Below are positions 6,118-26,924 of a stretch of 33,293 nt of DNA, in pieces; the stretch's first letter is position 1, and every line of letters starts with the position of its first letter. The position numbers and the translations under genes are program-made. The notes under the pieces were generated by a model. The model ran no database searches. It was not told where the DNA came from and saw nothing but the letters and a program-made list of their open reading frames with translations. Origin of the DNA: Sphaeroforma arctica JP610 (lineage: Eukaryota); contig NW_014039661.1 of assembly GCF_001186125.1 (NCBI RefSeq), positions 1-33,293 of the forward strand, written 5' to 3'.

Positions 6118-6985
6118 TCACGTCTCGTTTTTCTTGTTCTTTAGCTTGGCGCAAAGTATCACATGGGCAGATCCCCCCAAATAAGTTTTGATGACTGCGT
6201 TAGATACTACATATCGATCCTTAGCATCACAATAATCTATGAACTTCAGGTTTTTACATGTATCCTTAATAGCATCCCATGATAAACGCTTGAGTATACA
6301 CATTAAGGTATATAAATTCTGCGCAAGAAACTCCAGTATAACATTCTTAGTGGTGAAGCGGGCAAGACGAAGCAAGACTCTATCAAAACCGTACGCTATT
6401 ACAGCCTTCAAAATGAGCTTACACTCTGCTTTGAGTTGTTGTTCTGGGTCAACATTCTCGAATGCGAGAAGTACATCTCTTATGCGTGAAGTTCTAGCTT
6501 TGCGACGTTAGAATACAATTACTGCACCAGATCTCCACTCAACATCACAAATGATCTTATCACAGCCGAGAACAAAATATCCTGTATCATATAATAGTAT
6601 ATAGTCAACGGGGTTTTTAATTTGGAGAGCAAGCAGTTGCTGCTCCGCTTCCATTGGGGCTACCATGAATTCAATATCCTTATCACGACACAACAACATC
6701 AAATGTTCTGCATATGCAATATTATAATAAGCTACGGCTGCTTTACACTGCTTCTTTTCATCGAAAGTTTTGTCCTTATGCTTCCACTGCAGAAGCAATA
6801 ATATATAGTATTGATTAATATTAACCACATAATAATGTAGTGAGACCAATAAACGATCACGTAATAAGTATTATATACCTTAATATAGTCGTCGATAGAT
6901 TGCATTGCCAAATTCCTTCTAGCTTCTCGCTTTCGTTTGCGAGTTTGTCTCTCACTCGGTAGCCATCAAAGACAATGAACAATTG
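6118..6985 (-). pseudogene. XPG/FEN1/EXO1-family 5' nuclease pseudogene (XPG-N end, XPG-I, possible H3TH); probable intron 6787-6878
   Basis: FIVFDGY followed by a basic helix (RKRKREARRNLAM, after a frameshift). LMLLCRDKDIEFMVAPMEAEQQLLAL..VDYILLYDTGYFVLGCDKII resembles EXO1 VAPYEADAQLAYL..ITEDSDLLVFGC. A GT..AG intron joins the pieces in frame. Confidence 0.65.
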
Positions 6986-7660: not shown

Positions 7661-7982
7661 ACTGATTGCCAGAATAAGTGACGATTGGTATCCCACCAAT
7701 ACGATTCATCTGTACACACTATATAGAGCCATTCACCAATAAAACCTGGTACATTAACGAAAATAAAGTCTTCACCAACAAATCGATGAGGCACAAACGA
7801 CCCATAGAGCTTTGTACCAAGAGTCACCGGGCCTGTGTCAGGAAAATTGCCATTTGCCCCCACTTGGCTTTGACCGCAACACTATCCACTATCCAGAGGG
7901 CCGTGTAGCCTTCTGATTTCTGAATATTGAACAGACTTTAATCATCTTTTTAAAAGTCTCGCCCTTTTGCACTGACGAGTGC

Positions 7983-8168
7983 TATTGGAACTAGAAACTG
8001 TCAACATAATTGATTAAGTTTACTATTGAATATAGTTGTATATTTGTAGGATAATAAACGGAGTAAAAATTGTGTTCACGATTATTGACCACATGTGATT
8101 ATGCTCAGTAACCGAAAAACCTAGTTTAGGGTTTAAACCCAGATAGTCAGGTTTAACCTGTCCCAGTA
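7983..8168 (-). repeat. Copia LTR (186 bp, TA...TA termini)
   Basis: Closely similar to 22224-22409 and homologous to 18788-18988, which is followed by a PBS. Minus-strand termini are TACTGGGA...TTCCAATA. No clear PPT is adjacent. Confidence 0.75.
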
Positions 8169-8229
8169 ATGATTTTCGTGTTATCGGGAAGTGGAAATCT
8201 TGAGGGGAAAGTATTTGTTGTGTAAAATA

Positions 8230-8789
8230 CTCGTGGAGACACTTGGTAAGAAGGTCAGCGGGGTTCTCGTGCGTAGAGATGTAGCTATTGTTAATGATGC
8301 CCTGGTGGGCACAGTCGCGTATGTAGTGGGCTCGGACCTCGATGTGTTTGAGGCCTTTGGCGGTGCCCGTACCAAAAGCGACTTCAATAGCCAATTGATT
8401 GTCGACATGGAGATGAGTCGGATGGAGAACTGTGTGCCCGCAAGCATTGAGTATATTACGGACCCATGCAATATCACGCGTGGCCTCAGATGCCGCAATA
8501 TATTCGGCCTCTGTGGAACTTATACTGACAGTCCTTTTTTTTTTTGACTTCGCCAGTGGACGGGCGTGTTGTTCAGAGTGATGAGGGTGCCAGTATGTGA
8601 TTTCCGGGTGAGTGGGCAAGAGCCCCAGTATGAATCGGTATACGTTGTGAGGTGATGGCTGATGTCGAGCTTATCGGGGGCGGATGTGTAGCGTAGAGCA
8701 AATGTTTTAATAGTGACGAGATAGTGTAAAATGCGGGTCAGCGCATCGTAGTGAGGAATCAGGGGGGCTACACTGAAGAGAAGTGGCAT
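8230..8789 (-). pseudogene. Copia RT C-terminus and RNase H
   Basis: HYDALTRILHYL..YTDSYWGSCPLTRKSHTG..VHWRSQKK, a frameshift in the T11 run (~8535-8545), then TVSISSTEAEYIAASEA..VDNQLAI..KHIEVRAHYIRD..NPADLLTK. Confidence 0.92.
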
Positions 8790-9115
8790 AGGGGACGGAA
8801 CGAAGTTAGAGGTAGGTGTGTGGGGGGGTCGGCTATACCGGTGGAGTGAGTGAGAGGGATTGAAGTAGGCGGTGAGGGAATTGTCGAGAGTGGTATGGGA
8901 GTTGGTAGGGGAGGAATGGTGGGGGTGGGGAGTGGGAGAGGGTCAGGGAGAGGAGGCACGACAGCAAGGAGTGGTATAGGGGTGGGGTCTGGAGGAATTG
9001 GAGTGGGAGGTGGTTGTCCGGGCGCAGGTGTTGAAGGGAGGGCCGAGGTAGTGGTATGGTGGTGGGGACCGGAGGAATTGGGGAAATATAACGAATCTCG
9101 ACGGCGATGTGATGA

Positions 9116-10517
9116 CTAGCTGTTGCCCAGTCGCTGGGAATTTCCCATATAGATGGGGTAGAATCTCGTGTGGCATTGGGGGCGTTCCTTTGTAAAAATT
9201 TGGACGTCATGGCTATGGATAATCATCTGGGTCGAAAAACTCTGAATTGTGAACGTGTAATCGGTGCCATTTAGGACCTGGCCGCGGAGAACCCAAAGCC
9301 ACATGGCGGGGCATACTTGTGTTTGGGGTATGTAGTTGAAGCCTTTGTATATTTTAAATGCAACGACACAACCAGAACGCGTATGAGGGTACGTAGCGGC
9401 CGATTGTCTATGCCATATACGATGCGGAGTGAACAGTTTGGCATTCTTGGGAGGGGTACGATTCCGAAGGGTGTCAGCGAATGTTTTGGCGAAGCCCCAG
9501 AGAACAAGGGGCATACCAGCATCAAGTAAGAGGCATCAAACCAAGGTATTGAGGGTAGAGTGTTGGCGTTCGACCGCTGCGTTCATTTGGGGGGTGTTTG
9601 GTGGCGTAACACGGAGTGCCATATTCTGCGAGGTAAGATGATTGCGAAGGTTCTCGCTCTGGAGAGCAAAGTTTCCATCGGACGTGAGGGTGTGGGGTTT
9701 CCAGTGCCTCGGTATGTGTGTTAGAAGTTCGCCCACCTGCTGTTCCAACGACATTTTGTTGGGCAGGTTTTTGTGGATGCCGAATGTAGATACAGCGTCG
9801 ACCATGTTTAATGCATAAATATTGCCATCGCGATCATGGGGGATGGGACCCTGAAGGTCGATGTGCAGCTTTTCGCCAGGGCCATAGATAGTATCTGTTG
9901 ACTCACGGGCTACTCCCTTCGCGTGCATTTTAGGCTGGTTTTGCCAACTTTCTGAAATTGTGAAAATAGCCTTTTGGATCGAGTAAAACACCTTACTCCG
10001 GCAACTAAATTGTGTATTTCATATCCTCGTGCTGAAATTATGAAATGTATTTGAAATTCTGGAAAATTTTCAGGACAATTTGAAACTTGATATTCGTTCA
10101 GATTGTCCCTTTTGGCAAGTTCAAATTACAAGACTGCACCTCCAAGAAATTCTACTCAAAATTCGAAATCCGAAATTTTCCTCTAATAAGTGAAAACGAG
10201 GGTCAGACAACGTTTTCACTTGGATAAGAGAAATAGACTGTTCTATTTTAAAATCTACTCTGGCTTTTTTTTAGCGCACTTTTGAAATTACAGTATGTCA
10301 CATTTTTATGTATGGCGTTTGTCAACTGGACAATAGACTTTTTGAGGAAATTCTGGGCTGCCCTACAGCCATAATTTGTTGGACTGGCTATAAAAATTTC
10401 AATACAGTACTGGAAAAGAAACTATCCGAAATACAGTCCATAATTCCAAAAACAATAGTTTCCTCAGAGTTTTATAAAGTTGGCAAAACAGGCCTTAGCT
10501 TCGATGCAGGTGGGACA
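9116..10517 (-). pseudogene. Copia integrase (CxxC and rve core), split by a MITE
   Basis: Excising 9933-10494 plus one TTA restores KHCPTCIEAKMHAKGVARESTDTIYGPGEKLHIDLQGP..YALNMVD..TSDG..PQMNAAVER..LP-like/WGFA..RNRTP. Confidence 0.9.
9933..10494. mobile_element. Non-autonomous PIF/Harbinger (Tourist-like) MITE, 562 bp
   Basis: 25-bp TIRs GGCTGGTTTTGCCAACTTTCTGAAA vs GGCCTGTTTTGCCAACTTTATAAAA (21/25). TTA TSD at 9930-9932 and 10495-10497. Removal restores the integrase reading frame. Confidence 0.9.
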
Positions 10518-10597
10518 ATGTTTTTCGAACTTGGGGTTGGCCCGGGCAGCATAATGGCCGCTGTAAGTGCACTGGAGTCGCGAACAGCAGTATGAAG

Positions 10598-10916
10598 GGG
10601 ACCGATAAGAGCTACGATCGTGTAGAGCCAAGACGGACGGCCGACAACAGTAGTTCCGTGTCGGAGAAAGGGAGAGTACGTGTTACGTATGATGAAGGGG
10701 TCTGATTGAAAACGTGAGCTGACCGCCGTCCACCATTTGGCGCATGGTCGGAGGGGAATGACGATGGCCGTGGTTGCCCCGACCTTAGTAACAGCGTGGG
10801 TCATTTCGTAGATGTCGTTCCATATGGGGTTGCCATAGGCTTACTCGGGAAGGAAATTCACTTGCCGCCAGTCATTATCAACGCCGCCGCCTTCAGGGCC
10901 TGCGTAGCGAGGTACC
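10598..10916 (-). pseudogene. N6-adenine DNA methyltransferase-like domain of Copia A (C-terminal two thirds)
   Basis: VPRYAGPEGGGVDNDWRQVNFLPE*AYGNPIWNDIYEMTHAVTKVGATTAIVIPLRPCAKWW..DPFII..FLRHGT..WLYTIVALIGP; NPIW at 10820-10831; 23/81 ungapped identities to the Gypsy MTase domain. Confidence 0.8.
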
Positions 10917-11013
10917 TGTGTAAAAGCCGGGCCCCCACATTAGAATCTTGTAATATAAACGGACACTTAAAAGTACGTAAACTTAGTTTTCCCTAAATGG
11001 GTTTTAACAGTTT

Positions 11014-11044
<31 letters not shown>

Positions 11045-11734
11045 AATATATAAAGACAATCCAATTTGTTCAGTTAAGTAAATTTAAATGATTGTGAGGC
11101 CGACCACCTTTTCCATTTTACATATCAGATATTTGGACAAGGCCATTAAAAGCCCCCAGTAAAATACCAAATATAAGATTTGGACTAGTTCTATTAATAG
11201 AACTATATTTACTTTCCAAATCTATTTATATCTGAATACTTCGGTAGCGAGATGGCTCAACCGAACATAGGTTTCTAAGGACTATTAGCGTTGCTTAGTT
11301 TATCCTCTGTTCAGCCAACCAGATGTGCCAGTCTGATGCAGGCTAGTCGGTAATTCTTGATAAGTGGCAAGTTATTGGTTAGTACAATAACTATGGACTT
11401 CGAGAGTTTTTTTTTTCTATTTTTTTTCTAAAGATAGGATTTTATGAGTCTCTCGGATTCGCCCCAACGAAACATATCATAGTTTCTACTAGAGCGACGA
11501 CGAAACACTAAATAAAATCCCTTCGGCGAAAACAGTACTGAGAGGTATATATATATTGGCAATGTCTCAGCCTCACAATCCCTCAGAGTATTGCTGTCTT
11601 CACGAGGCTTACCTTAATTTATTAAAAGACTCACTTCAATTATTTACTTTGAAATTTTATTATACTTAGACCTAATCTAAGCGTTTAATTACTCTAAGGC
11701 GTTAATATCGCCTTGATAGACCGGAACTTACACA
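10917..11734 (+). repeat. Gypsy 5' LTR (~818 bp)
   Basis: Starts TGTGTAAAAGCCGG and ends CCGGAACTTACACA (inverted termini, TG...CA). Its first ~540 bp are repeated at 18341-18787, less a ~80-bp indel. The right end is inferred from the inverted terminus. Confidence 0.85.
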
Positions 11735-11836
11735 TTTTAAAGTTAGCAAAGGTATTAACTACTTAGACTACTTAAACGTAAAGGTAGATAACTACCTCAA
11801 TTTTTTTCCTAAACGCAGTCATTTAAGTTAAGTATT

Positions 11837-14051
11837 ATGACTAAGAAAGACAATACACCTGCAAAGAAACGCAAGGCCGAACGTAAGAAGATGGAGAGAG
11901 AAGCTGCAAGTGCCGCCGCTGCTGCCGATGCGTTTAACCGCACCGTAGCCGAAGCACTTGTCTCTGGCAATAACAGTCTGGACAATGCTTCGGATAAGGA
12001 TGCAGCCACTCCGATTACGGAGACTACCCTTGCAGAAAGAGCCCGAGGGCCAACTATTGCCTCAACTTAGAAGCTCGCATTTCGGAAGCCAAGAAGTGAG
12101 ACAAGGGACACATCTCAAGACGCCCCATCTAATCCTTCTGATGAAACTCAGAAAGAAAAGTCCCCAATTATAGGGGACAAAGACGAGTCTCAGAAGGTAC
12201 CTACACCGGAACCAGAAGAGGAGGCAAGCTCAAGTGGCAAACCCGAATCTACGTCCGAGACCACTGAGCTAACGAGCATAAGTAGGTTAACAACTGAAAA
12301 CACTGATCTTTAGAATCAGTTAGCCGCTTTTATGAAAGGCTTGTCTGTTGAACATGTAGATCGAATGTATGGAACGGAAAAACAAGCAAAGCGCTTACGC
12401 GAGCATGTTTCTCCAGACACTACTAAAGATCTACAGCAGTGGACGGAACGTCAGCAGTCAATGACGCCCGAAAAGCGTAAGGATTTGATTGCAAAACCTG
12501 TGGCAGTTGACCCAGATGCGCCCAGCATATCTATACCTTACGAGGAACTACCACCCGAAGTCCAGGTATTTTACACTCCTGTTCCTTCGCCCGGCCATGA
12601 GTCACCTGTTATTGAGGGTATTATAGACCCAGAGGCAGGTAAAAGGACTCCACCACCTTTACCCAACTGGGGAGACCGTTCACGTCAGAGACCAGTTAAA
12701 ACTGGGTATGTCATCCAGACGCATGAATCACTCAAGATAATAATACCAACGACTATCCAAGGAACAGTGCACCGAAAGGTCTCTACCATGGACTTTACAC
12801 GGGGCAATAAACCCCCGCGTAAGCGAATTAACGAAGTCAAGTTTAATCGCTTCGATCGAACTGCTTTGCATCAACCCGCAGAGGATTTCCATTCTGATGA
12901 AGTGACGGAACTTAAAAACTCGGTCGACGACTACATGATCAAAATGGACATTGCTCATGACCAGAAGAATGAAGCAGACATAACATATTATGCTAATAGG
13001 ATCGCGAATCAACAGAAGCGCATCGACCAACTACTTCAGGCCCAACGTGGACAAGACCACCGGGATAACCAGAAGTACAAGGGGCAGATCAGTCGACTTA
13101 AGTCGAACTGGGATGCTAGCAGCAAGCAGGTCGAGTTTATTAATAATCACGACCTCGACACGCTAACCCATACGCTAAATGCGCTTACGGTTATGCTGGA
13201 GACGATCGATATCGCTCCCCAGCAGTGGATTTCTGCATGAATGCAGTCATTCGACCCAACAGGAACAAGTTACTTGATCCTGCAGCGCCACCAACACGAG
13301 CTAGACGCCTGTGACGCTGTGTGTTGGTTAGTCACATCCTCATTAAGCAAGGACATGCGCAGTCCAGGACTGAGTTCAATCTTAACTGAACCAGTTGAAA
13401 ATACTCCTATTCAGAGCTACATTCTGGAACTCTATGCTTACCTTAAACGTCCAGATATAACAAAGGACAAGGCTCAGCGATGGTACGAGTTCCTGACAAT
13501 GCATGTTTTCTGTAAGAACATAGGGAACAACGACCGTGAAAATATGAACACCGAGTTGCGACGTAAGTACGCAACTGAGGCTCGAGACATGGGACATGAA
13601 ACAAAGTTTTATCTATCCCGACTTACGTGGGAACAGTTTTACGATACTGTATCCACCCTTTACCCCGCTCACCGAGTAACGAGGAAAGGCGGTAAATAAG
13701 AAATCGCGTGAACTCCCTGATCAAGGATATCTCTCACGACAGACGTCGGATGATATGCCTCATCAGACCCGTCCGAACCAGACACGCACTCGCGACTCTA
13801 CTCAGTCAACACGACCCAATAAGGGGGTACGCGCGGAGACGAAGGACAAGGAACCTTCATATATGGAAGCTAAGAAATGCGCCGACGCGCAGTGTGGGTA
13901 TGACATGTACCAATCAACCCCTAACGGTTATTGGAATGGAAGACATGCACTCAACTGTACACACTTCCTTACGAAGTGTGACAAGTGTGAAAAGACCAAT
14001 GGTTATCATGCCAAGTCTTGTGACAAGAAGCCCGACAGTAAGTTGGAGTGA
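11837..14051 (+). pseudogene. Gypsy gag-like ORF, interrupted
   Basis: Collinear same-frame ORFs 11837, 12332 and 13241 lie between the LTR and the protease. A C-terminal Cys/His cluster (CDKCEKTNGYHAKSC) follows a frameshift. Confidence 0.7.
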
Positions 14052-14139
14052 AAGTGCTACCAGGTACAATCGTTGCAAAGAAAATACAACGACTCCTTAG
14101 ATGAGCGTGTAATAATCTCTGTATATTGCAACTGAAATA

Positions 14140-15890
14140 AAGTCCTTGCATTGATTGATCCTGGTTCAGAAATTTCATGTATATCCGACCGCTTTGCATT
14201 AATGAAAGACATTGAAAGGCGAACTCAAACCACTCACCTTATTTTAGCAGATGATAAACTCCTAAGTGTGATACCACAGATGTTAAAATCTCCCCGGCCG
14301 ATGATAGAAATATCACTACTCAAGCTGTTATCGTTAAGATGTCACAGAAGCATGACATTATAGTCGGAATGAGCGATTTGCTCACGTTAGGGATAACCGT
14401 AACTGGCTTACCTAACAACATAGATCCATTAAAGGATCAATCAGACGATAATCATCTGAAACCATATACACCACCATCGGACACAGTCAAGGAATTAATT
14501 CCTGGCTTTGATAAGATAATGGATCTTATATTAGTAAATAAGAAGATAAAAATAACTGACTGGGCGAAATTCCGCTTTAACGACAGATACGTCAGCCTTG
14601 ACTTAACCAAGGTAGATTTTGCTAAGCTCAAATGCTCTTCAAGAAACTATGTTTCTTGGAGACATGAGGCTGTAGTGAATGAACAAGTTGAGAAATGGAT
14701 AGTCGATGGGGTAATCGAAATCAATTACCAACAAACGCCAGTAAACTTAGCACTACTGGCAGTTGATCAACACAACTTTGACGGAACATTAAAGGAAGTC
14801 AGAGTATGTCTAGACATGAGTCCAATAAATAAATTATTGCCGACTCATAGTTTTTATTTCCCTCGTATAAACGAGTTACTGAAACGAATGGAAGATGCTA
14901 CGGTGTTTACAACCATAGACCTGACACAGAGGTATCATCAACTGCAAATTTATAAACCCCATCGTAAGTACTTCAGTTTAACTTGGAAAGGTAAACCATA
15001 CCGGTTTAGAGGAGCACCTTTCGGGTTACACTCTTTACCAGCATTCTTCCAAAAAGTAATGTAAGAAATGTTTGCAGACATACCTAATGTGCAAGTCTAC
15101 ATAGATGACATAGTCATCATTTCGAAAACTAAGGGCGAACACGCCGCATTAGTCAGAAGAGTCCTTCAGCGACTCAACGAACGAAACTTCAAGATTAACG
15201 AGAAGAATTGTCACTTCGCCATGAGCGAAATACAGCTCTTAGGCTATCGCATATCGGGGGAAGGTATAAAATCGACCTAGGTAAGGTGGAACACCTGTTA
15301 GATTGGCGAACAACAACTACAGAAAGAGATGTAAATAGTGTGTGTGGATATGTAAACTTCTTCTCTGATGGAGTACCACACTTAGCTGATTATCTTAAAC
15401 CCTTTGGACACTTAAGATGTCCAAAAGGTAAACTAGGAGACTTGTGGACCAAAGAGTGTGATGACGCATTTAAGGCGCTCAAGCACACAGTCCAACAAGC
15501 CCCTATAGTACAAAGACCAGTCGATGGCGTGCCGTTTGAAATAGCAACGGATGCACCAGACTTCGCGCTCGGAGGAGTATTGTACCAGGTTATAGATAAT
15601 AAGCCTAGGTATATACAATTCTTTAGCCGAGCAGTGAACGCATCACAGTTAAATTATTCAACTGTGAAGCAAGAGCTACTTGTCACAGTAGCAGCTCTTC
15701 CGTGATTACGTATACGGAACAGCGTTTACGCTAATGTGTGATCAGAAATCCCTTCAGTATATGAAGAAGATGAAGCTAGACTCTCAATTATTGAGCCGAT
15801 GGCATGATACGATATCAAAGTTTCATTTTGACATCAAACATTTACCAGAGATACATAACCACTTACTGGATATGTTATCACGCTTCGTAC
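14140..15890 (+). pseudogene. Gypsy protease, reverse transcriptase and RNase H
   Basis: ALIDPGSEISCIS..HDIIVG (PR). VRVCLD..IDL..YHQ..PFGL..FQKVM*..VYIDD (YIDD at 15098-15109). FEIATDAPDFALGGVLYQ..FFSR..NYS..QELL..CDQKSL..DMLSR (Ty3-type RH). Confidence 0.95.
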
Positions 15891-15928
15891 CGGACTTTAA
15901 TAAACCCGTACGAGAGTTACTAGCCACG

Positions 15929-16333
15929 GACTGGAAATGTAACCCCAGGTGGTTTGAATTGGATCAAAATTAATCTGGGTCACATACCATAGATATGTTT
16001 GCTGCACATCATAATGCACAACTATCGAATTACTGGACTTTAAATCATCCTTTGAGAGACGCCTTTCAAATAGACCTCTCCAAACATAATGCGTGGGCTA
16101 ATCCACCATGGCAGTCAATTGGCCAGCTATTAAATTATGTTCATATACATAAAGCTACCATCACAATGTGTTGCCCATTACGGAGTAAAGATCCATGGCT
16201 CAATAAATTAATAAACATGATACAATGCGAGCCAATATATTTAGATAGGGAAGTAGATACTTTCCTATATCAGGGTACCCGAGACATCCAGAAGACGCCC
16301 TAGAGACATACTATAATATGTCGTATAGGTCCC
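15929..16333 (+). pseudogene. DIRS/phage-Dam-like N6-adenine DNA methyltransferase domain in Gypsy pol
   Basis: DWKCNPRWF..*SGSHTIDMFAAHHNAQLSNYW..DAFQIDL..AWANPPW(16100-16111)..CPLRSKDPWL..; in frame with the RNase H C-terminus; two premature stops (15971, 16301). Confidence 0.88.
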
Positions 16334-16779
16334 ATTGGAACAACCAAATGGACCCCTTCTGAGACCTTCCTTAACAAGGTCAAAGAATCAGAGATTCCAC
16401 TCTCTACCCAATTGAACGTTATGCAGTTCAAAGGCAACACAGCACTTGAAGTTTGTGCACAAGAAAAAAATCTACTAATGACACTACTGTTTAGAAGCGT
16501 CAGTCTCTAGCTAGGACTTTGTTTAATAACATAAAGTCCAAGCCCGAGGTCTTTCAAACCCTATTTCTAAAGGGACTAATGAAAGACAATCCTGAAGCGT
16601 ATACACATATAATGCGACTATTTAATAAGCCAGGTGTATCAAACGCACATGAGCGCACTCATGACACTCATGCGAAAGCAGGACAGGAGTCTGGAAACAC
16701 TACAAACTTAGAGACCACGCAAGTGGATTCTCAACACCCTACCTTTATTCTGGAGGAGCAGAATGATGAAAACATTCTT

Positions 16780-17780
16780 ACTTGGCTGACGCAAAACCAT
16801 AAGCTGAAGCACCAGAACGTAGTAGACGCACTTAAAGATGCAAAGCGAAATGAGATCGCGCACCCTATACTGGCAACTTTAGTTGGCAGAGTATATCAGT
16901 CATGTACAGACTGTGATCTCAATCAGATCAAGCGCCATGGGTTTGCTCCGCTTAAGAGTGTGACTGAAGATGTTACATGGCGAAGGGTCATCATTGATCT
17001 GGTTGACCTGCCTACGTCCGAACACACAGGTGACCGTTACGTATGACACTTCTTTGATGTCGCGTCACGGTATAACTTGCTCTATCCTTTAAAGGACAAG
17101 AGTACGCAGACCGTAGCAGAATTATGTTGCCAAGTCTTTGCTGACCACGGATGGCCAGGTATTATGTGCACTGATAACGGTAGTGTGTTATGCGATGACG
17201 TAATGGAATCGCTAGTACTCATGTCAGGCATATGCCATAAGAGAGGTGTGCCATATAAGCCGCAAACGCAAGACGCGAATGAAACGCGCCATAGAAGACT
17301 TAAGTTCTTCTTGCGTACTGCATTAACAGATGATGCAGATGATTGGCCGTACCACCTTAAGTTGGTACAAACACAGATGAACGAGTGTGCTGATCCGGAT
17401 ACAGGAACTACACTCGCTCACTATTTTCGTGGCAGACATAGTGAGTTACAAATACCCTTTAAAAAGGACGAACCTGATCACCATGAGTTGCCATGGTTAG
17501 AGAAGGTACAACGCATACACAACGTTGTATATCCTTGCTTGCGAGAGACACTTAATGTGGCCTTAATAAAAAGGCAAAATAGATGGAATGCTACCAAGAA
17601 GATAGCAGAGTATCAGGTGGGAGACAGAGTTAACATCCGTCAACGTAATTCCGATGCTACTGTACTAGCATCGAAATGGATAGGACCATATGTAATCTCT
17701 GTAACTGACATCAAAAGTGGAACCTATGAGGTTAATAACCCTGACGGTTCTAGTGCTCTAAATATAGACACTAGTCGAAT
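16780..17780 (+). pseudogene. Gypsy integrase (HHCC, DDE core, C-terminal GD..WIGPY module)
   Basis: NHKLKH..CTDC; RVIIDLVDL..DVASRY; CTDNGS; YKPQTQDANE; YQVGDRV..SKWIGPY. Confidence 0.92.
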
Positions 17781-18330
17781 TCCGATTACTGAGAATATCC
17801 TCGCAAGAAGACATGATTCTACTGCACCCCTTGTCCACTCCGAATTCCAAGATAAAAAACATGGAGAACGGATAAAGGAGGATATACATATTATCGTACA
17901 CGCTTTATATACGGTACAATCGCTGAAATAACTTCAGACGCTTTTGACAATAAGGACTATTTAAAGGCCTTTAACAGAAAATGGCGTAAACGCCTACATA
18001 CGTCACAGGCTGAAAAAGATAGCATGTTTCCATCATCTGAAGGCACCGAAGTTAAAACTTACTAGCCAACAGCATTTATTCCGAGCTCTACTGCTCATCC
18101 TTCGTATGTTCCAAAAACATTGAAGCGTAAGAAACGTCCAGTCGACCACCATGGACCTACTGGACCTAAGTCCAAAACTCACAGGGCAACCGAGAACGCT
18201 TAACTTCTCCGCCTGAGAAACATTAACTATACGTTATGCTACTTAATGATTTCGACCCGTTTTCCTTTCCCCTTTTTTTGACCCGTAATCAGCTTGAGTG
18301 AGCAACTTGCTTTTCTTGGGTCTCAAAGCT

Positions 18331-18340
18331 GGGTGGGGGC
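18331..18340 (+). promoter_or_regulatory. Polypurine tract of the Gypsy element
   Basis: GGGTGGGGGC immediately before the 3' LTR. Confidence 0.75.
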
Positions 18341-18787
18341 TGTGTAAAAGCCGGGCCTCCACATTAGAATCTTGTAATATAAACGTACTCTTAAAAGTAC
18401 GTAAACTTAGTTTTCCTTCAATAGTTTTTAACAGTTTGAATAATTAAATACCTTTTCCATTTTACATATCAGATATTTGGACAAGGCCATTAAAAGCCCC
18501 CAGTAAAATACCAAATATAAGATTTGGACTAGTTCTATTAATAGAACTATATTTACTTTCCAAATCTATTTATATCTGAATACTTCGGTAGCGAGATGGC
18601 TCAACCGAACATATGTTTCTAAGGACTGTTAGCGTTGCTTAGTTTATCCTCCGTTCAGCCAACCAGATGTGCCAGTCTGATGAAGGCTAGTCGGTAATTC
18701 TTGATAAGGGGCAAGTTATTGGTTAATACAATAACTATGGACATCAAGAGTATTTTCCTTAAAGATAGGATTTCATGAGTCTCTCGG
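18341..18787 (+). repeat. Gypsy 3' LTR, truncated by Copia B
   Basis: Direct repeat of the 5' LTR (6 mismatches counted over the ~290-bp central block). Homology ends where the Copia LTR starts. Confidence 0.92.
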
Positions 18788-18988
18788 TTTCGGACCACGC
18801 CAAATTTGTCCTCTGGAATTTTAACACAAACTAGGTTTTTCTTCATGACTCATCACTTTATGGTTCACGGCGATGTGAACTATTCTTCACCCACAATTTT
18901 CACTTAGTCTTCTGAACTACTTATATTGTAGCATAATACCAATAAACAGACTACTCAGTTCTTTTCCCAAAGTTTATACGTTCCAATA
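18788..18988 (+). repeat. Copia B 5' LTR (~201 bp)
   Basis: Shares CCTCTGG..AAACTAGGTTTTTC and the terminal GTTCCAATA with the minus-strand LTRs. Confidence 0.75.
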
Positions 18989-18998: not shown

Positions 18999-20393
18999 TA
19001 TTATAATACGGACGAAGACTTTGTCTTAGAGCGTGAACACCACTCCACCACGCTTCTCATCGACGACGACGATGGATACGCCACTCCGGACCAAGACCGC
19101 CACCCCACCTACCACCATGATTCCACCCCACCCCGTGCCCCTGATACCCCATATCGGCCTCCATTCCCTGAGGCATAACCCCTCGCGCGATCTACTTTCG
19201 TCCCCCTATTTCCCCCCAGTAGTCCCCCTAAGTCCACATCTCACGACATCATGCTCACTACTAAAGATTCTCCACACCGCTGGACTTGGACTATTCTTTC
19301 TGTCTCTGGTAATCCATTCAATACCTGGAAAACAGATATCTACCTTGCTGCTGCCACCGAGTATATTATTGATCTCCGCCCGCTACTTGTTTATGATGAC
19401 CTTGTCCATTCAGAAGCATCTACCAATACCTTTATCGCATCTCACAAGGAATCTGGAACATAGCAACGTGCAACCCAGGTTATACTTCGATCGCTTTCCG
19501 CCGAACTCGGCACTTCCCCCGATAACTCTACGTTTCTGAACCATCCATGGAAACTCTTGGAGACCATCATTAGCCGATTTCAACATAATTCTGCTAAAGA
19601 GCGTAAGAACATCAACCATGCCTATCTTCGCCGGTTTAAACGTCGCAATGACGAAGCCCTCCGTGAATGGGCCTATCGTTGTGAAGTTCTCTTCTGCCAG
19701 GCTGATAAACAGGGCACCCGTTTTTCTACCGAATTTCAACAGAATCTGTCTCTTTCTGACCTACCTGACAGCTACCAGGAACAAGTAAAGGGTTATATAC
19801 TTGGTCTCACCACATCCCGGACCCTAATCACTATCCAACGCTTGTGCCTGTATATTGAGAAATGGGAAATTCTCAACAATATTACCACCCCTCGCGTCAA
19901 TCGCGCCACCACTCCGGCGCCTCTCACATTGAATGGTACCATCGCAGCTAAGTGCCTGGGTGCCCTTACTGCCAACACCACAACACCAGCACCCCGTAAG
20001 TTTCAGTGCTATGTCTGCTGGTCTGACAAACATCATAGCGGTCGCTGTACAGTTGCATGTGGCAAGTGTGGTATTAAGACTCACACTGCACGTGAATGTA
20101 CCACTACACCACTAACTTGTACCAACTGCTCACACTTTAACCACTTGGCACTTGTATGTAGCAAGAGAAGCAATAAAGCAAATTTTCCCTACTCCAACCA
20201 CCCCCAATCTACCTCCCCACATACCACCACCACCGCCCGCATATCTAAGATACATACTATCAAACGATGTACACCCAAGTATCAAGACACATTACCTATC
20301 GATGGCGGAGCAACTGTTAACTACTTAAATGACAAATTAAGCAATCGTGTAACACGTCGAACAAGGTTCATATTATTTATTACTGGCCGATGA
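18993..20393 (+). pseudogene. Copia B gag-protease
   Basis: CYVCWSDKHHSGRC, CGKCGIKTHTAREC and CTNCSHFNHLALVC knuckles; PIDGGATVNY (DGGAT at 20301-20315); stops upstream. Confidence 0.85.
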
Positions 20394-20985
20394 ATCTTCC
20401 ACAATTATTACTAAACGAGGTTCACTCCTCAATTTGGGTATCGCCTACGTCAGCCCCACTCCAATTCAACAACTGGTATCTCAGAACATGATCCCAAGAC
20501 AATGGACACACCCTCGTCTTTCCACAGGATATCAACCAGTGCATCCTTTCTAGAGGCAACCACTCAATCACGATCCGTCGTTCTCGGGGAGGATATCATG
20601 TTACCTTTGATCAACTGGCGGCATTCAACACCCCCCAAGATACCGTCTGCACAATTCGCTCTCCGGCAGCACCAACTACTCCACCGTTGACCACTCCCCA
20701 TGAACGCCCTCCCGCCCCCCCCCCCCCCACCCCAACTACCTTCGATCCCCCCATTCCGATTACACCCGCCGCACCTACCTTCCCACCAGTCCCAACCCCG
20801 TTACGGTGGCGTCCATCGCACCATATTCATTAGTATCTACGACTCCAGCATCCGCTACCACCACCATGACCTATGACGAGTTTCACGCTAACTCTGGTCA
20901 CCTCAGTCGTATGGCCACACTCCGCCTGGCCAAACGTCACAACATTGCCCTCACCTACCCTCCTAAGCCGTCTGTTCAGACTAAT

Positions 20986-21221
20986 GCCTGGCAACTCAAT
21001 CCTACTGAATGGCGGCCTGCGCTTCTAAAAGTGATACACATCTTCGATACTACGCGAGCCCAGACGGTTCCGGCCTCTATACTGATTGGCGTGACATCGA
21101 TTTCCTTTTTGAATCTGCATATACCAATCCTAAGTGGGAGGACCTCTACGAAATTACTCACCATATCACGAAGGTAGGCGCTACAGCCTCTATCGTCGCC
21201 CCTCTCCGACCTTGTGCATAA
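20986..21221 (+). pseudogene. N6-adenine methyltransferase-like domain of Copia B (N-terminal part, internal deletions)
   Basis: AWQLNPTEW / ACASKSDTHLRYYASPDGSGLYTDWRDIDFLFESAYTNPKW(21126-21137)EDLYEITHHITKVGATASIVAPLRPCA; 35/57 identical to Copia A. Confidence 0.8.
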
Positions 21222-21316
21222 TGACACTCTCGTTGCCGATGGAGATTCTGACCTACAAAGTGACATTCTCACCACTCACCTTGCTTCTAAGGGTATTGAA
21301 CTTCGGTTCCCCCCCC

Positions 21317-21391: not shown

Positions 21392-22223
21392 ATAATTAAT
21401 ATCCTACATCTACTAATGTCTCAAATAGGTCCAAGTAGATGAGTCATACCAAATACTCAGGCTATTGGAGCCATCAAAGTGCATTTAGAACACTTTGGAA
21501 ATATTGGAAAAAGAGCTTGTATTAAATTATTTAAAATACAAATAAAAACCAATGTATTATCTCAATTGATCTTGATATTTTAGACTGACCGGAGGCCGTA
21601 TTTCTACAGAGGTTGCCTGGGATTGCAACTCGACTCAATGGCCAGCACAAACCCACTCACCCCTCGGACGCAACCTGCCTGGGCCCACGACAAACCATCA
21701 CTGCGCTTCCCGTACAGTATCTATGTCCACTTAAAGATTGTATACAAAACCACGGACGGGCGTACACCAGACCATGTAGCCCTCCGCCGACGATGTGACG
21801 ACATTAGAAAGAAATTAATAAAACGCTGGTCCAGCAAGGAGATCGCGGCAATGGCCCGGCGTCAATACTACTACCAATTGGTCATGGGCATACCGCCAAC
21901 CTCAGATCGGGACAAAGCCAGACACGACAGCTTCAACCACTGCTTCGAGCCTACACCAATCCGGCTCTGTGCTATGATTGTAACAAAATATGTACATGTT
22001 CACATTGATCGACTACCGCACTGGCGGCTGTCTCTGCCCTGTCTGGCCCTGTGGCCAAAAATTCTATTCTCCATTGTCGACTCACTTGGTCCAAGCTTCA
22101 ACAGGGAATTTACTGACCACTTCTTCCCATCTATCTTCCCCGAACCACTACACCGGCTATGAGAGCCATACCATATGTACAAACATTGTAACTTAACTCT
22201 TTTGAAATATATAATATTATCCC

Positions 22224-22409
22224 TATTGGAACTAGAAAACTGACATCATAATTGATTAAATTTATTATTGAATATATTTGTATATTTGTAGGAAAATAAT
22301 GGGGGTAAAAATTGTGTTCACGATTATTGACCACAATGATTAAGCTCAGTAACCGAAAAACCTAGTTTAGGGTTTAAACCCAGAGGGTCAGGTTTAACCT
22401 GTCCCGATA
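22224..22409 (-). repeat. Isolated Copia LTR (186 bp)
   Basis: Same family as 7983-8168; termini TATCGGGA...TTCCAATA; no PBS and no matching TSD. Confidence 0.8.
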
Positions 22410-23856
22410 AATGTCGACCCCTGAGAGACCCTTGCTCTAGACTTATTGACCAATCAGGTGGTCTATATCCATTGTTCCTCTGGATTCCTGGAGAGTGGAA
22501 AGTCAAAATTGAAAATAGCTGGAGACTTATAAATATGTAAATATGCATGTACAATAGAGACAAAAATTAGACACTCGGTGACTCGACTCTCAAGAAACCC
22601 CCCTCTAAAATCCTCTATACACCCTATACAGTAGGAGGAAAATTAGGACCCTCTAAAAAGGCCCCCAAACCAAAATTCAGTCACGAAACTACAATATTTT
22701 ATGAGCGGTAAGCTAATAGTCCGATACAGGGAGAGGAAGGAGGAAATCGGTTATTACATACATGAAATATAATTATATATTTACATACCGCAGGGCGAAG
22801 AGTATCAAAATTCATAGCCGCCTTCAAATGGAATTATGGAACCCAAAATTGGATAGGAGGCTATGCCAGATTGCCAGAGATTGCCAAGCCCAGCAGAAAC
22901 AAAAAAAAATTGACTGGGAACGCCTGGGCATCATTTTGAAGCCCCAACGGCCCACGGCTGGGCCCATAATAGTGACTCTCTCTCTACTCTCTAATGAAGT
23001 CTAGAGTCTCTCTACTACTAATCTCTACTACTAGTCTAGTAGTAGTGAGCGACTGAACACCGAGTGAGCGGTGACACCCCAGCATGCCCCACCCTCTTTC
23101 TCTCTACTAGAGAGAGTGAGGCAGGGCTAAAATAGATACGAAAATACGTCACCAGTATGCCCATAGCCTCGTCCCCTACCCTGAGCCCTGAGGCCTCTGG
23201 TCTGAGACTCGAGTCAATAGTCAGTCCAGAGTCCAGAGTCCAGAGTCCAGAGAGCAATAAATACATGGCGTTCTAAAAAAAGATTGTTGGGAATACTCTT
23301 GTTGGGAGGCTATGTATCAGATCCTACTGCTTCAGTTCCTATGTATGTATTTATTTCCAAAATACATATGTACAGTACATACTATATACTACTATTGTTT
23401 AAAAAACAAAAACACAAAAAAACAAAAAAACAAAAAAAAACAATCATGGCCTCCTCTTATTAGTTAATACATAAATACGAATGACCTATTTGTTCAATTT
23501 TATAGTGGGCTAATCCATTGCCTTCTAAAATACGGAAGAAGGCTATGGCTAATCCTAAATATCAATATATGTTATGACTTGTGAGGCCATGCATAGCGTT
23601 GTTAAACCCTAAAACCCTAGATTGCTAGAACCCTAAAACCCAAAAGAAGACAACTTATTTACTTTCTTCATTCAGAACAGGGCCCTGCTTTCATTTTTTT
23701 ATAAATCAATATATCTATGGCGAGGAATAGATGCGTGATGCACAATGCATCTGAGATCATTGTGTTTTGAGCTTTACGTTGTTCTTTGTAAATAGAACGA
23801 ACGGATTTTGTCGTTATCAACAGGAATAGAAGATTATACTGAGTTTGCCGAGAATA

Positions 23857-24921
23857 ATGTCAATATGGAGGACTTTTTCGCATTCGAACGGCGTTTGTTC
23901 AGCTCTTACACAACTCACACAACGTCACAGTCTCAACCAATCTAGACTATGTACACGTTTATTACATAGCCATACCAAGGCTGTAAATTTGAAGTACCCA
24001 CGACTCCGTACAAGCGCTATCGTAAGCACCGAGCGTTGTTTACCTCATACGAGGTTGATAGCTTCAGCACACACAGACGCACATCATATTGGTGGTTCAA
24101 AGGCACATGTAGTCGGACCAAAAACACCCGAATTATTGTCATGTACTATAGGGCAAATGCTCAAAGATACCGCTGCTAAGCATCCGTTACAAAAGGCGTT
24201 TGTGTGCAGAGAAGAGGCTGTCACGCTCACATATAAAGACTTGGATGAACAATCCGATGTACTCGCTAGAGGATTGCAAAAGTTGGGTGTAGCTCACGGT
24301 GACCGTGTGGGTGTGTGGCTGCCCAACTGTTCACAGTATGTGCTGCTGCAGTATGCCACGGCTAAGATAGGTGCTATACTTACCACCATGAATCCTGCGT
24401 ATCGAGCTGCTGAGGCGGTACATGCGATGAACTTGGTGGAATGCAAGGTGCTGGTGATCACGCCCGAGGTATCCAGAACAAACTACGTGCAGCTGTGCGA
24501 GGAGATGTGCCCTGAGCTCAATGAGTCCGAACCCCGGCTACCACGCGACAAGAGTGATGGACAAAGGCTGAATTTAAGCGCGGTGCCGACGCTGGAGCAT
24601 ATCATCAATGTGAGCGATATGGCGACACCGGGCATGCTTAGATACAAAGATGTGGTGAACTTTGGGGGCGACTGTGTAGATAACAATGGAGACGCGAACG
24701 GGTTGGTATTGGATATCACACCAACAGCTCAGGATGTGATCAATATACAATTCACAAGTGGTACCACGGGGAAACCCAAAGCTGCGGCCCTGACACACGC
24801 TAATATACTCAACAACGGACTCATGAATGCCGACCGATTGGGGGTAAGATAACCATGTGTCTGTGTAAAATCATATACCAAAGTGGATCCGTCCCTCCAT
24901 GAGAATGTATATATTCTTCTA

Positions 24922-25004
<83 letters not shown>

Positions 25005-25089
25005 GTTGTAGTATGTATGTATATATGTAAATGTATATATGTATATATGTAAATATGTATATATGTAAATATGTATTTATGTATATATG

Positions 25090-25122
<33 letters not shown>

Positions 25123-26924
25123 ATATGATATATGTATATATATATTATAAGTGGGTGTGGGTGTGCTATTTTGCTCTATATCATGCGTTGCTGCTTGGTA
25201 TCCATTATATACATGTGCGTTATGCCTGTATGTCCACGTCACACTACTACTCACTCAAACGCTATGTGCACATACATTTCACATCCTGCAGTACACTATG
25301 AATGATAGCATTTGCGTGCCGGTCCCCCTATACCACTGCTTTGGCCTGGTGATAGGGAACCTGGCTGCCTTGACCCGTGCGTGTACGGTCGTATACCCGT
25401 CAGCGACTTTCAACCCGGAGAAGGTACTACAGGCTGTTCATGAGGAGCGATGCACGTCTCTGTACGGAGTGCCTACCCACTTCATTGCCGAGCTATCTCA
25501 TCCCAACTTCAATCAGGTGTGTGAGATGCTATCCTCGACGATCCAGTGTGTCCTTGCTCTGAAAGGTGTACGTACCATGTGTGTAAAGCGCATACGTACC
25601 ATGTGTGTAAAGCATATACTTGTCATGTGTGTAAAATATATACTTAACACGTGTGCAAAACATATATGCAAGTTGAGTAATTTTTTTTTGTAAAACAGTG
25701 TTTGTGAATCTAGGTTTCTGGGCGGGTGCTAAGTACTGGAAGATTACATGCGCTCCTCAGCAACCTCTACTGCTATAAAGGTGTTGAAGAGTGTTGTCTA
25801 CGTTGATACCACATCCCTACACAAGCCCGTCGCTGTTCGTCTGAATAGCAATTGCAAGACTGAGCAAGGGAACCATACAGTTTTGTGCCATACAGCAATG
25901 ACCCTTATACCCAATGCACCCCCATAAACCAATACCATTTACAGTACTATCTCAGCAACTTGCGTTGAATAGCTGAGAACCGATGTATCTAATGTCTACT
26001 TACACCAATGCACCTCCAAAAACCAATTCCAACCAATACCATTCACAGTACGATCTCAGTAGTCTGCGCACCGGTGTGATGGCCGGGAGCTCCTGCCCCG
26101 AGGAAGTCATGCAACGGGTGATTAAGCAGATGCATATGAAAGATGTCACCATCTGCTACGGCATGACCGAGACAAGTCCGGTGAGTTTCCAGACCAACCA
26201 GAGCGACCCGTTAGACAAGCGCGTGAGCACTGTGGGCCGTATACACCCGCACCTGGAGGCTAAGCTCGTGCGACCAACCTCCGAGGAGAGTGAACCGGAC
26301 ACCAGTGTGCCCAAGGACGATGATGTGTGCGATATAGGGGAAGCCGGTGAGCTGTGGGTGCGAGGCTATGCCGTGATGAAGGAGTACTACAACGGTGACC
26401 CAAAGAACCACCCGGTCACTGACGACGGCTGGATACAGACAGGCGACCTGTGTGTGATGGACCAGGAGAGGTACCTGAGCGTGGTGGGACGGATCAAGGA
26501 TATCATCATCCGCGGGGGTGAGAACATATACCCGCGGGAGATTGAAGAGGTGGTGTTCAAGGTGCCCGGTGTGCAGCAGGTGAGTGTGGTGGGGGTGCGC
26601 AACGAGCTGTTCGGCGAAGAGGTCTGTGCGGTGGTGGCCATAGACGAGGACGCGTTCGACCACAGTGACCCACACAGTCCAACAGCCCACAGTTCGCATG
26701 TGTCACTGAGTGATGCGTTTGATGTGGAGATCACAGCGCGGGTGCGAGAAGCGGTGCGGAACGAACTCGCCCATTACAAGGTCCCGTCGGTGGTGGTTGT
26801 CATGGAGATAGAGGACATACCTATCACCGTCACGGGCAAAATCAAGAAGAAGGAACTGACACAGCAAGTCGAGAAGATCCTGGAGAAAACACGCGCGAAG
26901 GCCCAGGCTCAGGCATCGGCCTGA
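23857..26924 (+). CDS. ACSF2: Acyl-CoA synthetase, ACSF2-like (AMP-binding), ~695 aa, probably mitochondrial; exons 23857-24843, 25292-25516, 26049-26924
   Basis: [57 protein letters not shown] and TGKI motifs. Phase-0 GT-AG joins DRLG|YTMND and PNFNQ|YDLSS. R/S/L-rich, acid-poor N-terminus. The start codon is inferred. Confidence 0.92.
24927..25144. repeat. (TA)n and (TATG)n microsatellites in ACSF2-like intron 1
   Basis: Direct inspection. Confidence 0.95.

What the first reader, a model, noticed from the sequence alone, without database searches (positions are those of the whole stretch)
20860..21316. In Copia the MTase sits within or directly ahead of the integrase zinc finger
Seen: Copia B reads YDEFHANSGHLSRMATLRLAKRHNIAL (HxxxGH, 20884-20901) and then AWQLNP (MT start). 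Copia A reads MT end (LIGP) and then, after a frameshift, SGHYAARANPKFEKHCPTCIEAK (CPTC at 10506-10517) and the rve core. Inference: either ~150 aa of MTase splits HH from CC, or the His pair was duplicated and a second HHCC (RLQCTYSGHY..CPTC, first His decayed) follows the MTase. Either way the MTase may remain fused to mature integrase. I know of no described MTase-bearing Copia lineage. The architecture is pieced together from two partial copies.
Basis: partly seen in the sequence, partly recalled or inferred. Interest (0 to 1): 0.85.

Follow-up and report, generated by a model that had tools for sequence, protein, structure and literature searches.

The report
Methyltransferase splits Copia integrase zinc finger
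Broken Copia-type jumping genes in this genome (likely a single-celled relative of animals) carry a DNA adenine-methyltransferase-like domain set between the two halves of the integrase's zinc-binding motif, so the domain likely stays attached to integrase and would be carried to each new insertion site.

Summary
Both window copies are decayed, but a relative, SARC_09551 of Sphaeroforma arctica (P0004), holds protease tail, HxxxGH (H155/H160), a full Dam-family domain (188-328; Pfam Dam E 1.2e-5), CxxCxxGK (C355/C358) and the start of the integrase core in one gene model. Copia B matches it from the His pair into the MTase. Copia A matches it from the MTase to CPTC with one frameshift, which puts 'SGH' out of frame. 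His-to-Cys spacing is 194 residues, against 23-32 in canonical integrases. The MTase was under purifying selection between copies A and B (dN/dS about 0.17). Its catalytic motif reads NPIW/NPKW rather than NPPW, so activity is open. A May 2026 preprint describes Dam domains in Ty3/Gypsy elements, including those of S. arctica; the neighbouring Gypsy here is of that kind. Its text never mentions Copia. No intact Copia element was recovered, and zinc binding across the insert could not be modelled. Verdict: new variant of Dam-carrying LTR retrotransposons, with an integrase layout I did not find described.

The parts
19464..20390 (+). Copia B gag ORF with CCHC knuckles, running into the protease motif (DGG at 20301)
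   Evidence: zf-CCHC only weak (E 0.24); matches the N-termini of P0004/P0008
20356..20859 (+). Copia B rest of protease and Pro/Thr-rich linker, several frameshifts
   Evidence: tblastn of P0004 20-193 and P0008; a further copy about 82% alike over 20405-20630 in 4 of 4 runs
20860..20985 (+). Copia B first half of the integrase zinc-binding domain: HxxxGH at 20884-20901, then a predicted second helix
   Evidence: 22 of 46 columns identical in B, P0004 and P0008, both His included; only Pfam hit Integrase_H2C2, profile 11-33 of 59, E 0.19-0.24, below cut-off
20986..21218 (+). Copia B Dam-family MTase, N-terminal half (AWQLNP ... NPKW at 21126); frameshifting deletion of motif I near 21010-21020; stop at 21219
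21226..21315 (+). Copia B piece of the integrase core directly after the MTase (about 476 nt deleted between, CxxC included); then an assembly gap
   Evidence: 47% to Copia A rve over 30 aa, E 8e-4 within the window
10598..10918 (-). Copia A Dam-family MTase, from just after motif I to LIGP; NPIW at 10831-10820; one stop at 10843-10841; cut at its 5' end by the Gypsy LTR
   Evidence: 53% to P0004 220-342, E 7.5e-39 within the window
10494..10597 (-). Copia A linker (predicted third helix) and CxxC half of the zinc-binding motif (CPTC 10517-10506); one -1 frameshift at about 10553-10551
   Evidence: colinear with P0004 to residue 362
9933..10497 (.). Inserted non-autonomous element with terminal inverted repeats and a probable TAA target duplication; separates CxxC from the rve core
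   Evidence: many related contigs in the runs
9119..9931 (-). Copia A integrase catalytic core and C-terminal part, D,D(35)E intact, one stop
   Evidence: Pfam rve E 3.6e-4; PFV integrase E 1.4e-5
8200..8801 (-). Copia A end of RT (core deleted) and RNase H, after the integrase
   Evidence: motifs located (the patterns are recalled Copia motifs); ESM Atlas features 0.96 to unnamed eukaryote clusters, nearest named family RVT_2 at 0.79, on 17% of members
10919..18797 (+). Nested Ty3/Gypsy DAM-LTR element (LTRs from 10919 and 18343; RT, RNase H, Dam with NPPW at 15926-16342, integrase with compact HHCC); context and comparator, not part of the Copia
   Evidence: relative P0009 with RT, RNase H and Dam in one 1376-aa ORF, 68%

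Best explanation
These are decayed copies of a Copia-type retrotransposon family whose pol gene carries a Dam-family adenine-methyltransferase domain in frame between the His pair and the Cys pair of the integrase zinc-binding motif, so the domain likely stays on mature integrase and would act on, or bind, the cDNA and target DNA during integration. SHOWN by sequence: the order protease - HX4H - about 27 aa - MTase (141 aa) - about 26 aa - CX2C - integrase core; the same position in copies only 46-65% alike; purifying selection on the MTase. INFERRED: the MTase sits in the loop between the second and third helix of the three-helix zinc domain; the four ligands still close on one zinc; protease cuts upstream of the His pair, because a cut within would part the finger. 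COMMITTED BUT WEAKEST STEP (about 0.4): the tethered domain binds SAM and writes 6mA on the cDNA or the insertion site, seeding the active-chromatin mark that the host's AMT1 would maintain, as the 2026 preprint proposes for Gypsy DAM-LTRs.
For: P0004 = SARC_09551 holds all parts in one 394-aa frame. Pfam Dam E 1.2e-5; phrog_111 DNA methyltransferase E 0.002; phage N6-adenine methylases E 2e-3; colinear over 137 columns with the Gypsy Dam, hhalign probability 97.5; the Atlas's own model of P0004 matches RT/RNase H/Dam-bearing clusters at TM 0.59-0.66. Genomic DNA confirms both junctions independently of the gene model: His-to-Trp spacing is 30 in B, P0004 and P0008, and A aligns to P0004 220-362 with one 1-residue gap and one frameshift. 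Both His are invariant in 3 of 3 copies, and HxxxGH appears there in 92 of 20000 shuffles. The His piece hits only Integrase_H2C2, His half. A vs B MTase: dN 0.29, dS 1.72, 33 of 60 differences at third positions, against no such bias in the two wrong frames. Further copies: one contig 86% like A's MTase in 3 of 4 runs, whose loose end (shown for one run) continues into a motif-I-like peptide, and two joints linking the MTase region with the rve core in 3 of 4 runs. Helices predicted at 151-157, 163-172, then 337-347 after the MTase (low confidence).
Against: No intact element was found, and no single ORF holds MTase plus full integrase plus RT. P0004 and P0008 are protein records whose DNA I could not see; P0008 lacks 77 residues of linker, so gene-model splicing is possible there. 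The Pfam support for the His half is below cut-off (E 0.19), any HX3-7H arises in 5925 of 20000 shuffles, and neither half resembles the Gypsy zinc domains beyond chance. After removing the MTase, 53 residues remain between His and Cys, above the canonical 23-32 (PMC5384227). Motif IV is NPIW (P0004, A) or NPKW (B), never NPP, whereas the preprint finds Asn-Pro-Pro in almost all DAMs. It also found no 6mA gain when eukaryotic DAMs were expressed in E. coli, and PMC4738411 judges DIRS1 MTases likely inactive. dS is near saturation and rests on 58 codons of one pair.
Confidence: 0.62

Rival explanations
1. Same architecture, but the domain is catalytically dead and serves as a nucleic-acid, 6mA or chromatin-binding module on integrase, like a chromodomain or a targeting domain.
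For: NP[IK]W instead of NPPW in 3 of 3 readable copies. The motif I Phe of P0004 (DLFAA) is Cys in P0008 and B. The acid of the Gypsy 'DAF' motif aligns ambiguously (D235; the phage DW register would leave Gly there). Negative E. coli assays (preprint); DIRS1 MTases called likely inactive (PMC4738411).
Against: The Asn side chain, the first Pro and the aromatic residue, which PMC4738411 names as the contacts to the target amino group and base, are all kept. D235-W236 is invariant in 4 of 4 copies. The matched phage enzyme also lacks the motif I Phe.
Confidence: 0.3
2. The MTase insertion broke the zinc finger: the His segment is a conserved leader with another role, integrase uses CxxC alone or with other ligands (H307, H331), and protease may release the MTase.
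For: 194-residue spacing, with 53 left after removing the MTase. One His lies 23 residues before C355 in P0004, and H307 is shared with A. No model shows the four ligands together.
Against: The downstream His is not in the same column in A and P0004. Both upstream His and the residues before them are invariant in 3 of 3 copies. The CxxC is kept in 2 of 2 copies.
Confidence: 0.12
3. The His pair was duplicated, and a complete second HHCC follows the MTase.
For: The SGH...CPTC reading in one frame of Copia A; MAFFT also placed it on the His pair.
Against: SGH lies before the frameshift point, in the wrong frame. P0004 has no His pair and no compact HHCC after the MTase, while the same search finds a compact HHCC with 30-residue spacing in both Gypsy integrases.
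Confidence: 0.04
4. The MTase is debris from a nested Gypsy or DIRS insertion, an assembly chimera or a gene-model artefact, and not part of Copia pol.
For: A Dam-bearing Gypsy is nested exactly in Copia A's MTase, and all copies seen are broken.
Against: The Copia and Gypsy MTases are only 24-30% identical. The position is the same in A, B, P0004 and P0008. Selection acted in frame, and independent assemblies give the same letters.
Confidence: 0.02

Closest known systems
DAM-LTR retrotransposons, ichthyosporean lineage (Fernandez-Moreno et al., bioRxiv 10.64898/2026.05.21.726589; main text read in full, supplements closed)
   Same: Dam-family (PF05869) domain in the pol of an LTR retrotransposon; S. 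arctica is one of the named hosts; the window's Gypsy fits this description, and its MTase is colinear with the Copia one.
   Different: All five described lineages were placed by RVT_1 trees as Ty3/Gypsy-like or mixed DIRS/LTR, and 'copia' and 'Ty1' occur 0 times. In the Gypsy the Dam lies between RNase H and a compact HHCC, about 200 residues away. Here it is inside the HHCC of a Copia-order pol, and the motif is NP[IK]W.
DIRS1-like retrotransposon MT domain (PMC4738411, passages; PMC5890265, passages)
   Same: Same MTase family, embedded in a retroelement polyprotein; the nearest Atlas structures are RT/RNase H/Dam-bearing clusters.
   Different: DIRS elements use a tyrosine recombinase and have no DDE integrase or HHCC; here a DDE integrase follows the domain.
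Retrotransposon-borne C5 DNMTs: SymbioLINE-Dnmt, SymbioDIRS-Dnmt3, KnitGypsy-Dnmt3 (PMC5890265, passages)
   Same: A DNA methyltransferase captured into a retroelement ORF and kept under purifying selection.
   Different: Cytosine, not adenine, enzymes; that paper states that Symbiodinium Copia elements lack any DNMT domain.
Canonical retroviral/Ty1 integrase N-terminal HHCC domain (PMC5384227 and PMC8487063, passages)
   Same: HX4H and CX2C are present ahead of a D,D(35)E core.
   Different: The spacer is 194 residues instead of 23-32 and holds a whole enzyme domain.

Membership tests
Ty1/copia LTR retrotransposons | pol order protease - integrase - RT - RNase H | tested here: met
   Protease before the His pair/MTase/core in B, P0004 and P0008; integrase before the RT tail and RNase H in A; order stated for Ty1 in PMC8487063. 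Pieced together from copies; no single copy is whole.
Ty1/copia LTR retrotransposons | DDE integrase with D,D(35)E | tested here: met
   D9859, D9679, E9571; rve E 3.6e-4; PFV integrase E 1.4e-5
Ty1/copia LTR retrotransposons | Copia-type RT (RVT_2) and RNase H | tested here: inconclusive
   The RT core is deleted in A and absent from B before the gap, so no Pfam hit. The RNase H carries recalled Copia motifs, and its nearest named Atlas cluster is RVT_2, weakly (0.79).
Ty1/copia LTR retrotransposons | paired LTRs, PBS, PPT, target-site duplication | tested here: inconclusive
   No LTR pair assigned to A or B. A 92% direct repeat, 7982-8164/22223-22405, lies on A's strand but was not resolved.
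DAM-LTR as defined in the 2026 preprint | Dam (PF05869) domain in pol | tested here: met
   P0004 E 1.2e-5, 25.5 bits, under the 28.1 cut-off; PF05869 precomputed for it
DAM-LTR as defined in the 2026 preprint | Ty3/Gypsy-like organisation with an RVT_1 RT | tested here: not met
   Integrase precedes RT/RNase H in A; the feature is met by the nested Gypsy only
DAM-LTR as defined in the 2026 preprint | Asn-Pro-Pro catalytic triplet | tested here: not met
   NPIW in P0004 and A, NPKW in B; NPPW in both Gypsy copies
DAM-LTR as defined in the 2026 preprint | raised 6mA and expression of insertions in an AMT1 host | not testable with these tools
   no methylation data here; only contigs could be laid
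Integrase HHCC zinc-binding domain | HX3-7H and CX2C | tested here: met
   H155/H160 and C355/C358 in P0004; His pair in B and P0008; CPTC in A
Integrase HHCC zinc-binding domain | spacer of 23-32 residues (PMC5384227) | tested here: not met
   194 residues; 53 without the MTase
Integrase HHCC zinc-binding domain | four ligands close on one zinc in a three-helix bundle | tested here: inconclusive
   models had mean pLDDT 31 and 40; helix pattern fits, geometry not read

The most novel reading that the evidence does not exclude
A further, independent capture of Dam by an LTR retrotransposon, the first into Ty1/copia, in which the enzyme is threaded into integrase's zinc finger so that it cannot be cut away. 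The intasome itself would then carry an adenine methyltransferase with a changed active site (NP[IK]W) that marks each new insertion with 6mA at the moment of integration.
Probability: 0.3. Interest if true: 0.85.

Novelty: new variant of a known kind. Interest (0 to 1): 0.67.

Why it matters
The HHCC spacer of integrases is given as 23-32 residues; a natural 141-residue enzyme domain inside it shows that the loop tolerates a whole domain and marks a place where cargo can ride on the intasome. The 2026 preprint could not show what retroelement DAMs do or where they act. A version fixed to integrase points to the integration step and gives a compact test construct. It also extends Dam capture from DIRS and Gypsy to Copia, in a form that RVT_1-based trees and a Dam profile near threshold could miss. 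Limits: a low-copy, decayed family, seen so far in one host lineage.

Tried and rejected
No whole genome is held for this window. Word-index protein searches with Copia A's MTase and with its rve core, longer proteins only, found 0 of 74 and 0 of 243 candidates; the first missed P0004 although it is in that set, so these blanks are weak. Of the 5 hits of the profile search, 3 (P0005-P0007) are unrelated repeat proteins and were dropped. Metagenome scans with P0004 and with the Gypsy MTase alignment found no relative (0 of 66 and 0 of 54 stretches). Viral scans gave two 18-residue matches, not followed up, and nothing. The cluster look-up could not be made. P0004 has no PDB sequence match and no usable Atlas feature hit. 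AlphaFold2 alone (pLDDT 30.7) and with 8 rows (39.9) failed; fold searches on the second model gave nothing significant (Foldseek best E 0.73; VIA best Z 5.2, PCIF1 at Z 3.0, noise level). Comparing each half with the two Gypsy zinc domains was no better than shuffles. A six-row MTase tree could not place the donor. No ApT or CpG skew marks the elements. No RNA holder listed. Paper searches for a Copia-borne adenine MTase or an insertion in HHCC: 8, 3, 2, 4, 0, 2, 0 and 0 papers. The listings and the passages read showed none, but most subscription papers are not in the library, and the preprint's supplementary figures (domain pipeline, co-occurrence trees) could hold RVT_2 cases that I could not see.

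Full report
Setting. The window is eukaryotic: intron-split host genes (AMP-binding enzyme, XPG domain), microsatellites and nested retroelements. No genome is held. The closest protein relative of the Copia copies is SARC_09551 of Sphaeroforma arctica JP610, and the neighbouring Gypsy has the layout that a 2026 preprint describes for ichthyosporeans. I therefore infer an ichthyosporean host; this was not shown directly.

Observation. Copia B (+) reads gag with CCHC knuckles, a DGG protease motif (20301), a Pro/Thr linker, HANSGH (20884-20901) and, in the same open frame, AWQLNP (20986). A frameshifting loss of about 11-12 codons removes motif I. The MTase resumes at 21021, passes NPKW (21126) and stops at 21219. 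Directly after it comes a 30-residue piece of the integrase core, so B by itself places the MTase upstream of rve, across a deletion of about 476 nt. Copia A (-) starts in mid-MTase, where the 5' LTR of a Gypsy cuts it. It then reads NPIW, LIGP, a linker with one frameshift, CPTC, a 564-nt inverted-repeat element, the rve core with D,D(35)E, a Pro-rich stretch, the end of RT and RNase H. Independent contigs give the same letters for B in 4 of 4 runs and for A's MTase-to-CPTC region in 3 of 4, so the breaks are decay and not assembly errors.

The deciding relative. A profile of the two window MTase pieces against 1.84 billion representatives gave 5 hits, 2 of them family members. P0004 (394 aa, E 7e-16) is one frame: protease tail (GATVNY), linker, H155-x4-H160, MTase 188-328 (DLFAA 211, DW 235, NPIW 250, LLGP 324), C355-x2-C358-x2-GK, and the first residues of the core. 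P0008 shows protease, His pair and the MTase start, then jumps to the end of the core. P0004 is a gene model whose DNA I could not see, but both junctions that matter are confirmed by window DNA. The distance from the second His to the MTase's first Trp is 30 residues in B, P0004 and P0008. A aligns with P0004 220-362 with one single-residue gap and one -1 shift at about 10553-10551. P0004 has one His between MTase and CxxC (H331); A has one two columns earlier; neither has a pair. A search for a compact HHCC finds 30-residue spacers in both Gypsy integrases and none in P0004, whose spacer is 194 residues, or 53 without the MTase. The canonical motif is HX3-7H(X23-32)CX2C (PMC5384227, passage). 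Laid contigs point to more copies: one 86% like A's MTase (18 differences in 133 letters; 3 of 4 runs), whose loose end runs on into a motif-I-like peptide where A is cut, and two joints that link the MTase region to the rve core on one strand (3 of 4 runs). Their full sequences could not be retrieved.

Is it an MTase? The window pieces alone miss Pfam Dam. P0004 hits Dam at E 1.2e-5, just under the curated cut-off, and phrog_111 DNA methyltransferase at E 0.002. Among phages, 11 of the 15 rows listed fall on this region (the best at E 2e-3), and 9 of them are annotated as DNA or adenine methylases. Profile comparison with the Gypsy Dam is colinear over 137 columns (probability 97.5, E 5e-12). 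The Atlas model of P0004 matches RT/RNase H/Dam-bearing clusters at TM 0.59-0.66 (both sides predicted). Identity to the Gypsy Dam is only 24-30%, so it is not debris of the nested element. Between A and B the domain shows dN 0.29 and dS 1.72 over 58 codons, with 33 of 60 differences at third positions; the wrong frames give no such signal, and the integrase piece behaves alike. The domain was therefore a selected part of pol while the family diversified.

Is the His pair the first half of the finger? Both His, and the eight residues before the first, are identical in 3 of 3 copies, and 22 of 46 columns are invariant. The segment's only Pfam match among 24,736 models is Integrase_H2C2, positions 11-33 of 59, at E 0.19: the right family and the right half, but below significance. 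A low-confidence model gives helices 151-157 and 163-172 before the MTase and 337-347 after it, the pattern expected (own knowledge) if the MTase sits between helices 2 and 3 of the three-helix domain. A loose HX3-7H arises by chance in 30% of shuffles, so the case rests on conservation and position.

How it likely works. In Ty1, Gag-Pol is cut by protease into protease, integrase and RT, and the HHCC domain serves multimerisation (PMC8487063, passages). If the finger still forms, a cut between its halves would part it, so the MTase would remain on integrase and travel with the cDNA to the target (inferred). The preprint proposes that element DAMs seed 6mA on reverse-transcription intermediates, which host AMT1 then maintains as permissive chromatin, and reports more 6mA and expression on DAM-LTR insertions in S. 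arctica. I commit to that model for this element, moved to the integration step, at about 0.4. Against it: motif IV is NPIW/NPKW, while the preprint finds Asn-Pro-Pro in almost all DAMs; its E. coli assays were negative; and PMC4738411 calls DIRS1 MTases likely inactive. For it: the Asn, the first Pro and the aromatic residue that PMC4738411 names as contacts are kept, as is a DLFAA motif I in P0004. A dead binding module is the main rival (0.3); both readings share the architecture, which I put at about 0.85.

Comparison and novelty. Dam domains are known in DIRS elements and, since May 2026, in Ty3/Gypsy elements, including S. arctica's (bioRxiv 10.64898/2026.05.21.726589; all five parts of the main text read; supplements closed). 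That text has no 'copia', 'Ty1' or 'zinc finger' and classifies by RVT_1; SARC_09551 may sit among its 46% 'orphan' DAMs (inference). PMC5890265 (passages) covers cytosine enzymes and says Symbiodinium Copia lack them. My searches found no Copia-borne adenine MTase and no domain inserted in an HHCC (listings only, except where passages are cited). Unchecked notes of this scan report C5 cytosine-MTase-like domains in Copia of other genomes, mostly between protease and integrase: a different enzyme class and place, not tested here. The element works like a DAM-LTR but fails two of that group's features (Gypsy organisation, NPP). It is most likely a Copia by domain order, with the RT core and LTRs untestable. 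The donor of the MTase is unresolved: of the few rows compared, the co-resident Gypsy Dam is nearest (62 bits, against 47 for the best phage), but no DIRS sequence was on hand and the tree was uninformative.

Verdict. Observation partly confirmed (split finger yes, duplicated His pair no). New variant of a known kind. Interest 0.67; most novel reading 0.85 at probability 0.3.

Noticed in passing
window 10919-18797 (+): Decayed Ty3/Gypsy element with a Dam domain (NPPW) between RNase H and integrase, matching the ichthyosporean DAM-LTR lineage of the 2026 preprint; P0009 is a 1376-aa relative with pol in one frame. It inserted into the MTase of Copia A.
   Followed up: partly
window 9933-10497: 564-nt non-autonomous element with about 20-nt terminal inverted repeats and a probable TAA target duplication (PIF/Harbinger-like by recall); many related contigs in the runs.
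   Followed up: partly
window 7982-8164 and 22223-22405: 92% direct repeat on Copia A's strand, containing a TTTAGGG-like palindrome; may be pieces of Copia A's LTRs, which would make both the Gypsy and Copia B nested inside Copia A, or another repeat.
   Followed up: partly
window 21584-22162 (+): 192-codon open frame after the assembly gap, with no Pfam match and no likeness to the Copia proteins.
   Followed up: no
window 20251-20630: A further gag-protease copy of this Copia family, about 82% alike to B, appears in 4 of 4 runs laid.
   Followed up: no
P0009 residues 720-917; window 16342-16790: The Gypsy has a long linker (about 200 residues in P0009) between its Dam domain and the integrase His pair, unlike the Copia placement.
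   Followed up: no
window 23830-26924 (+) and 6118-6870 (-): Host genes: an intron-split AMP-binding (acyl-CoA synthetase-like) enzyme and an XPG/FEN1-family nuclease fragment.
   Followed up: no
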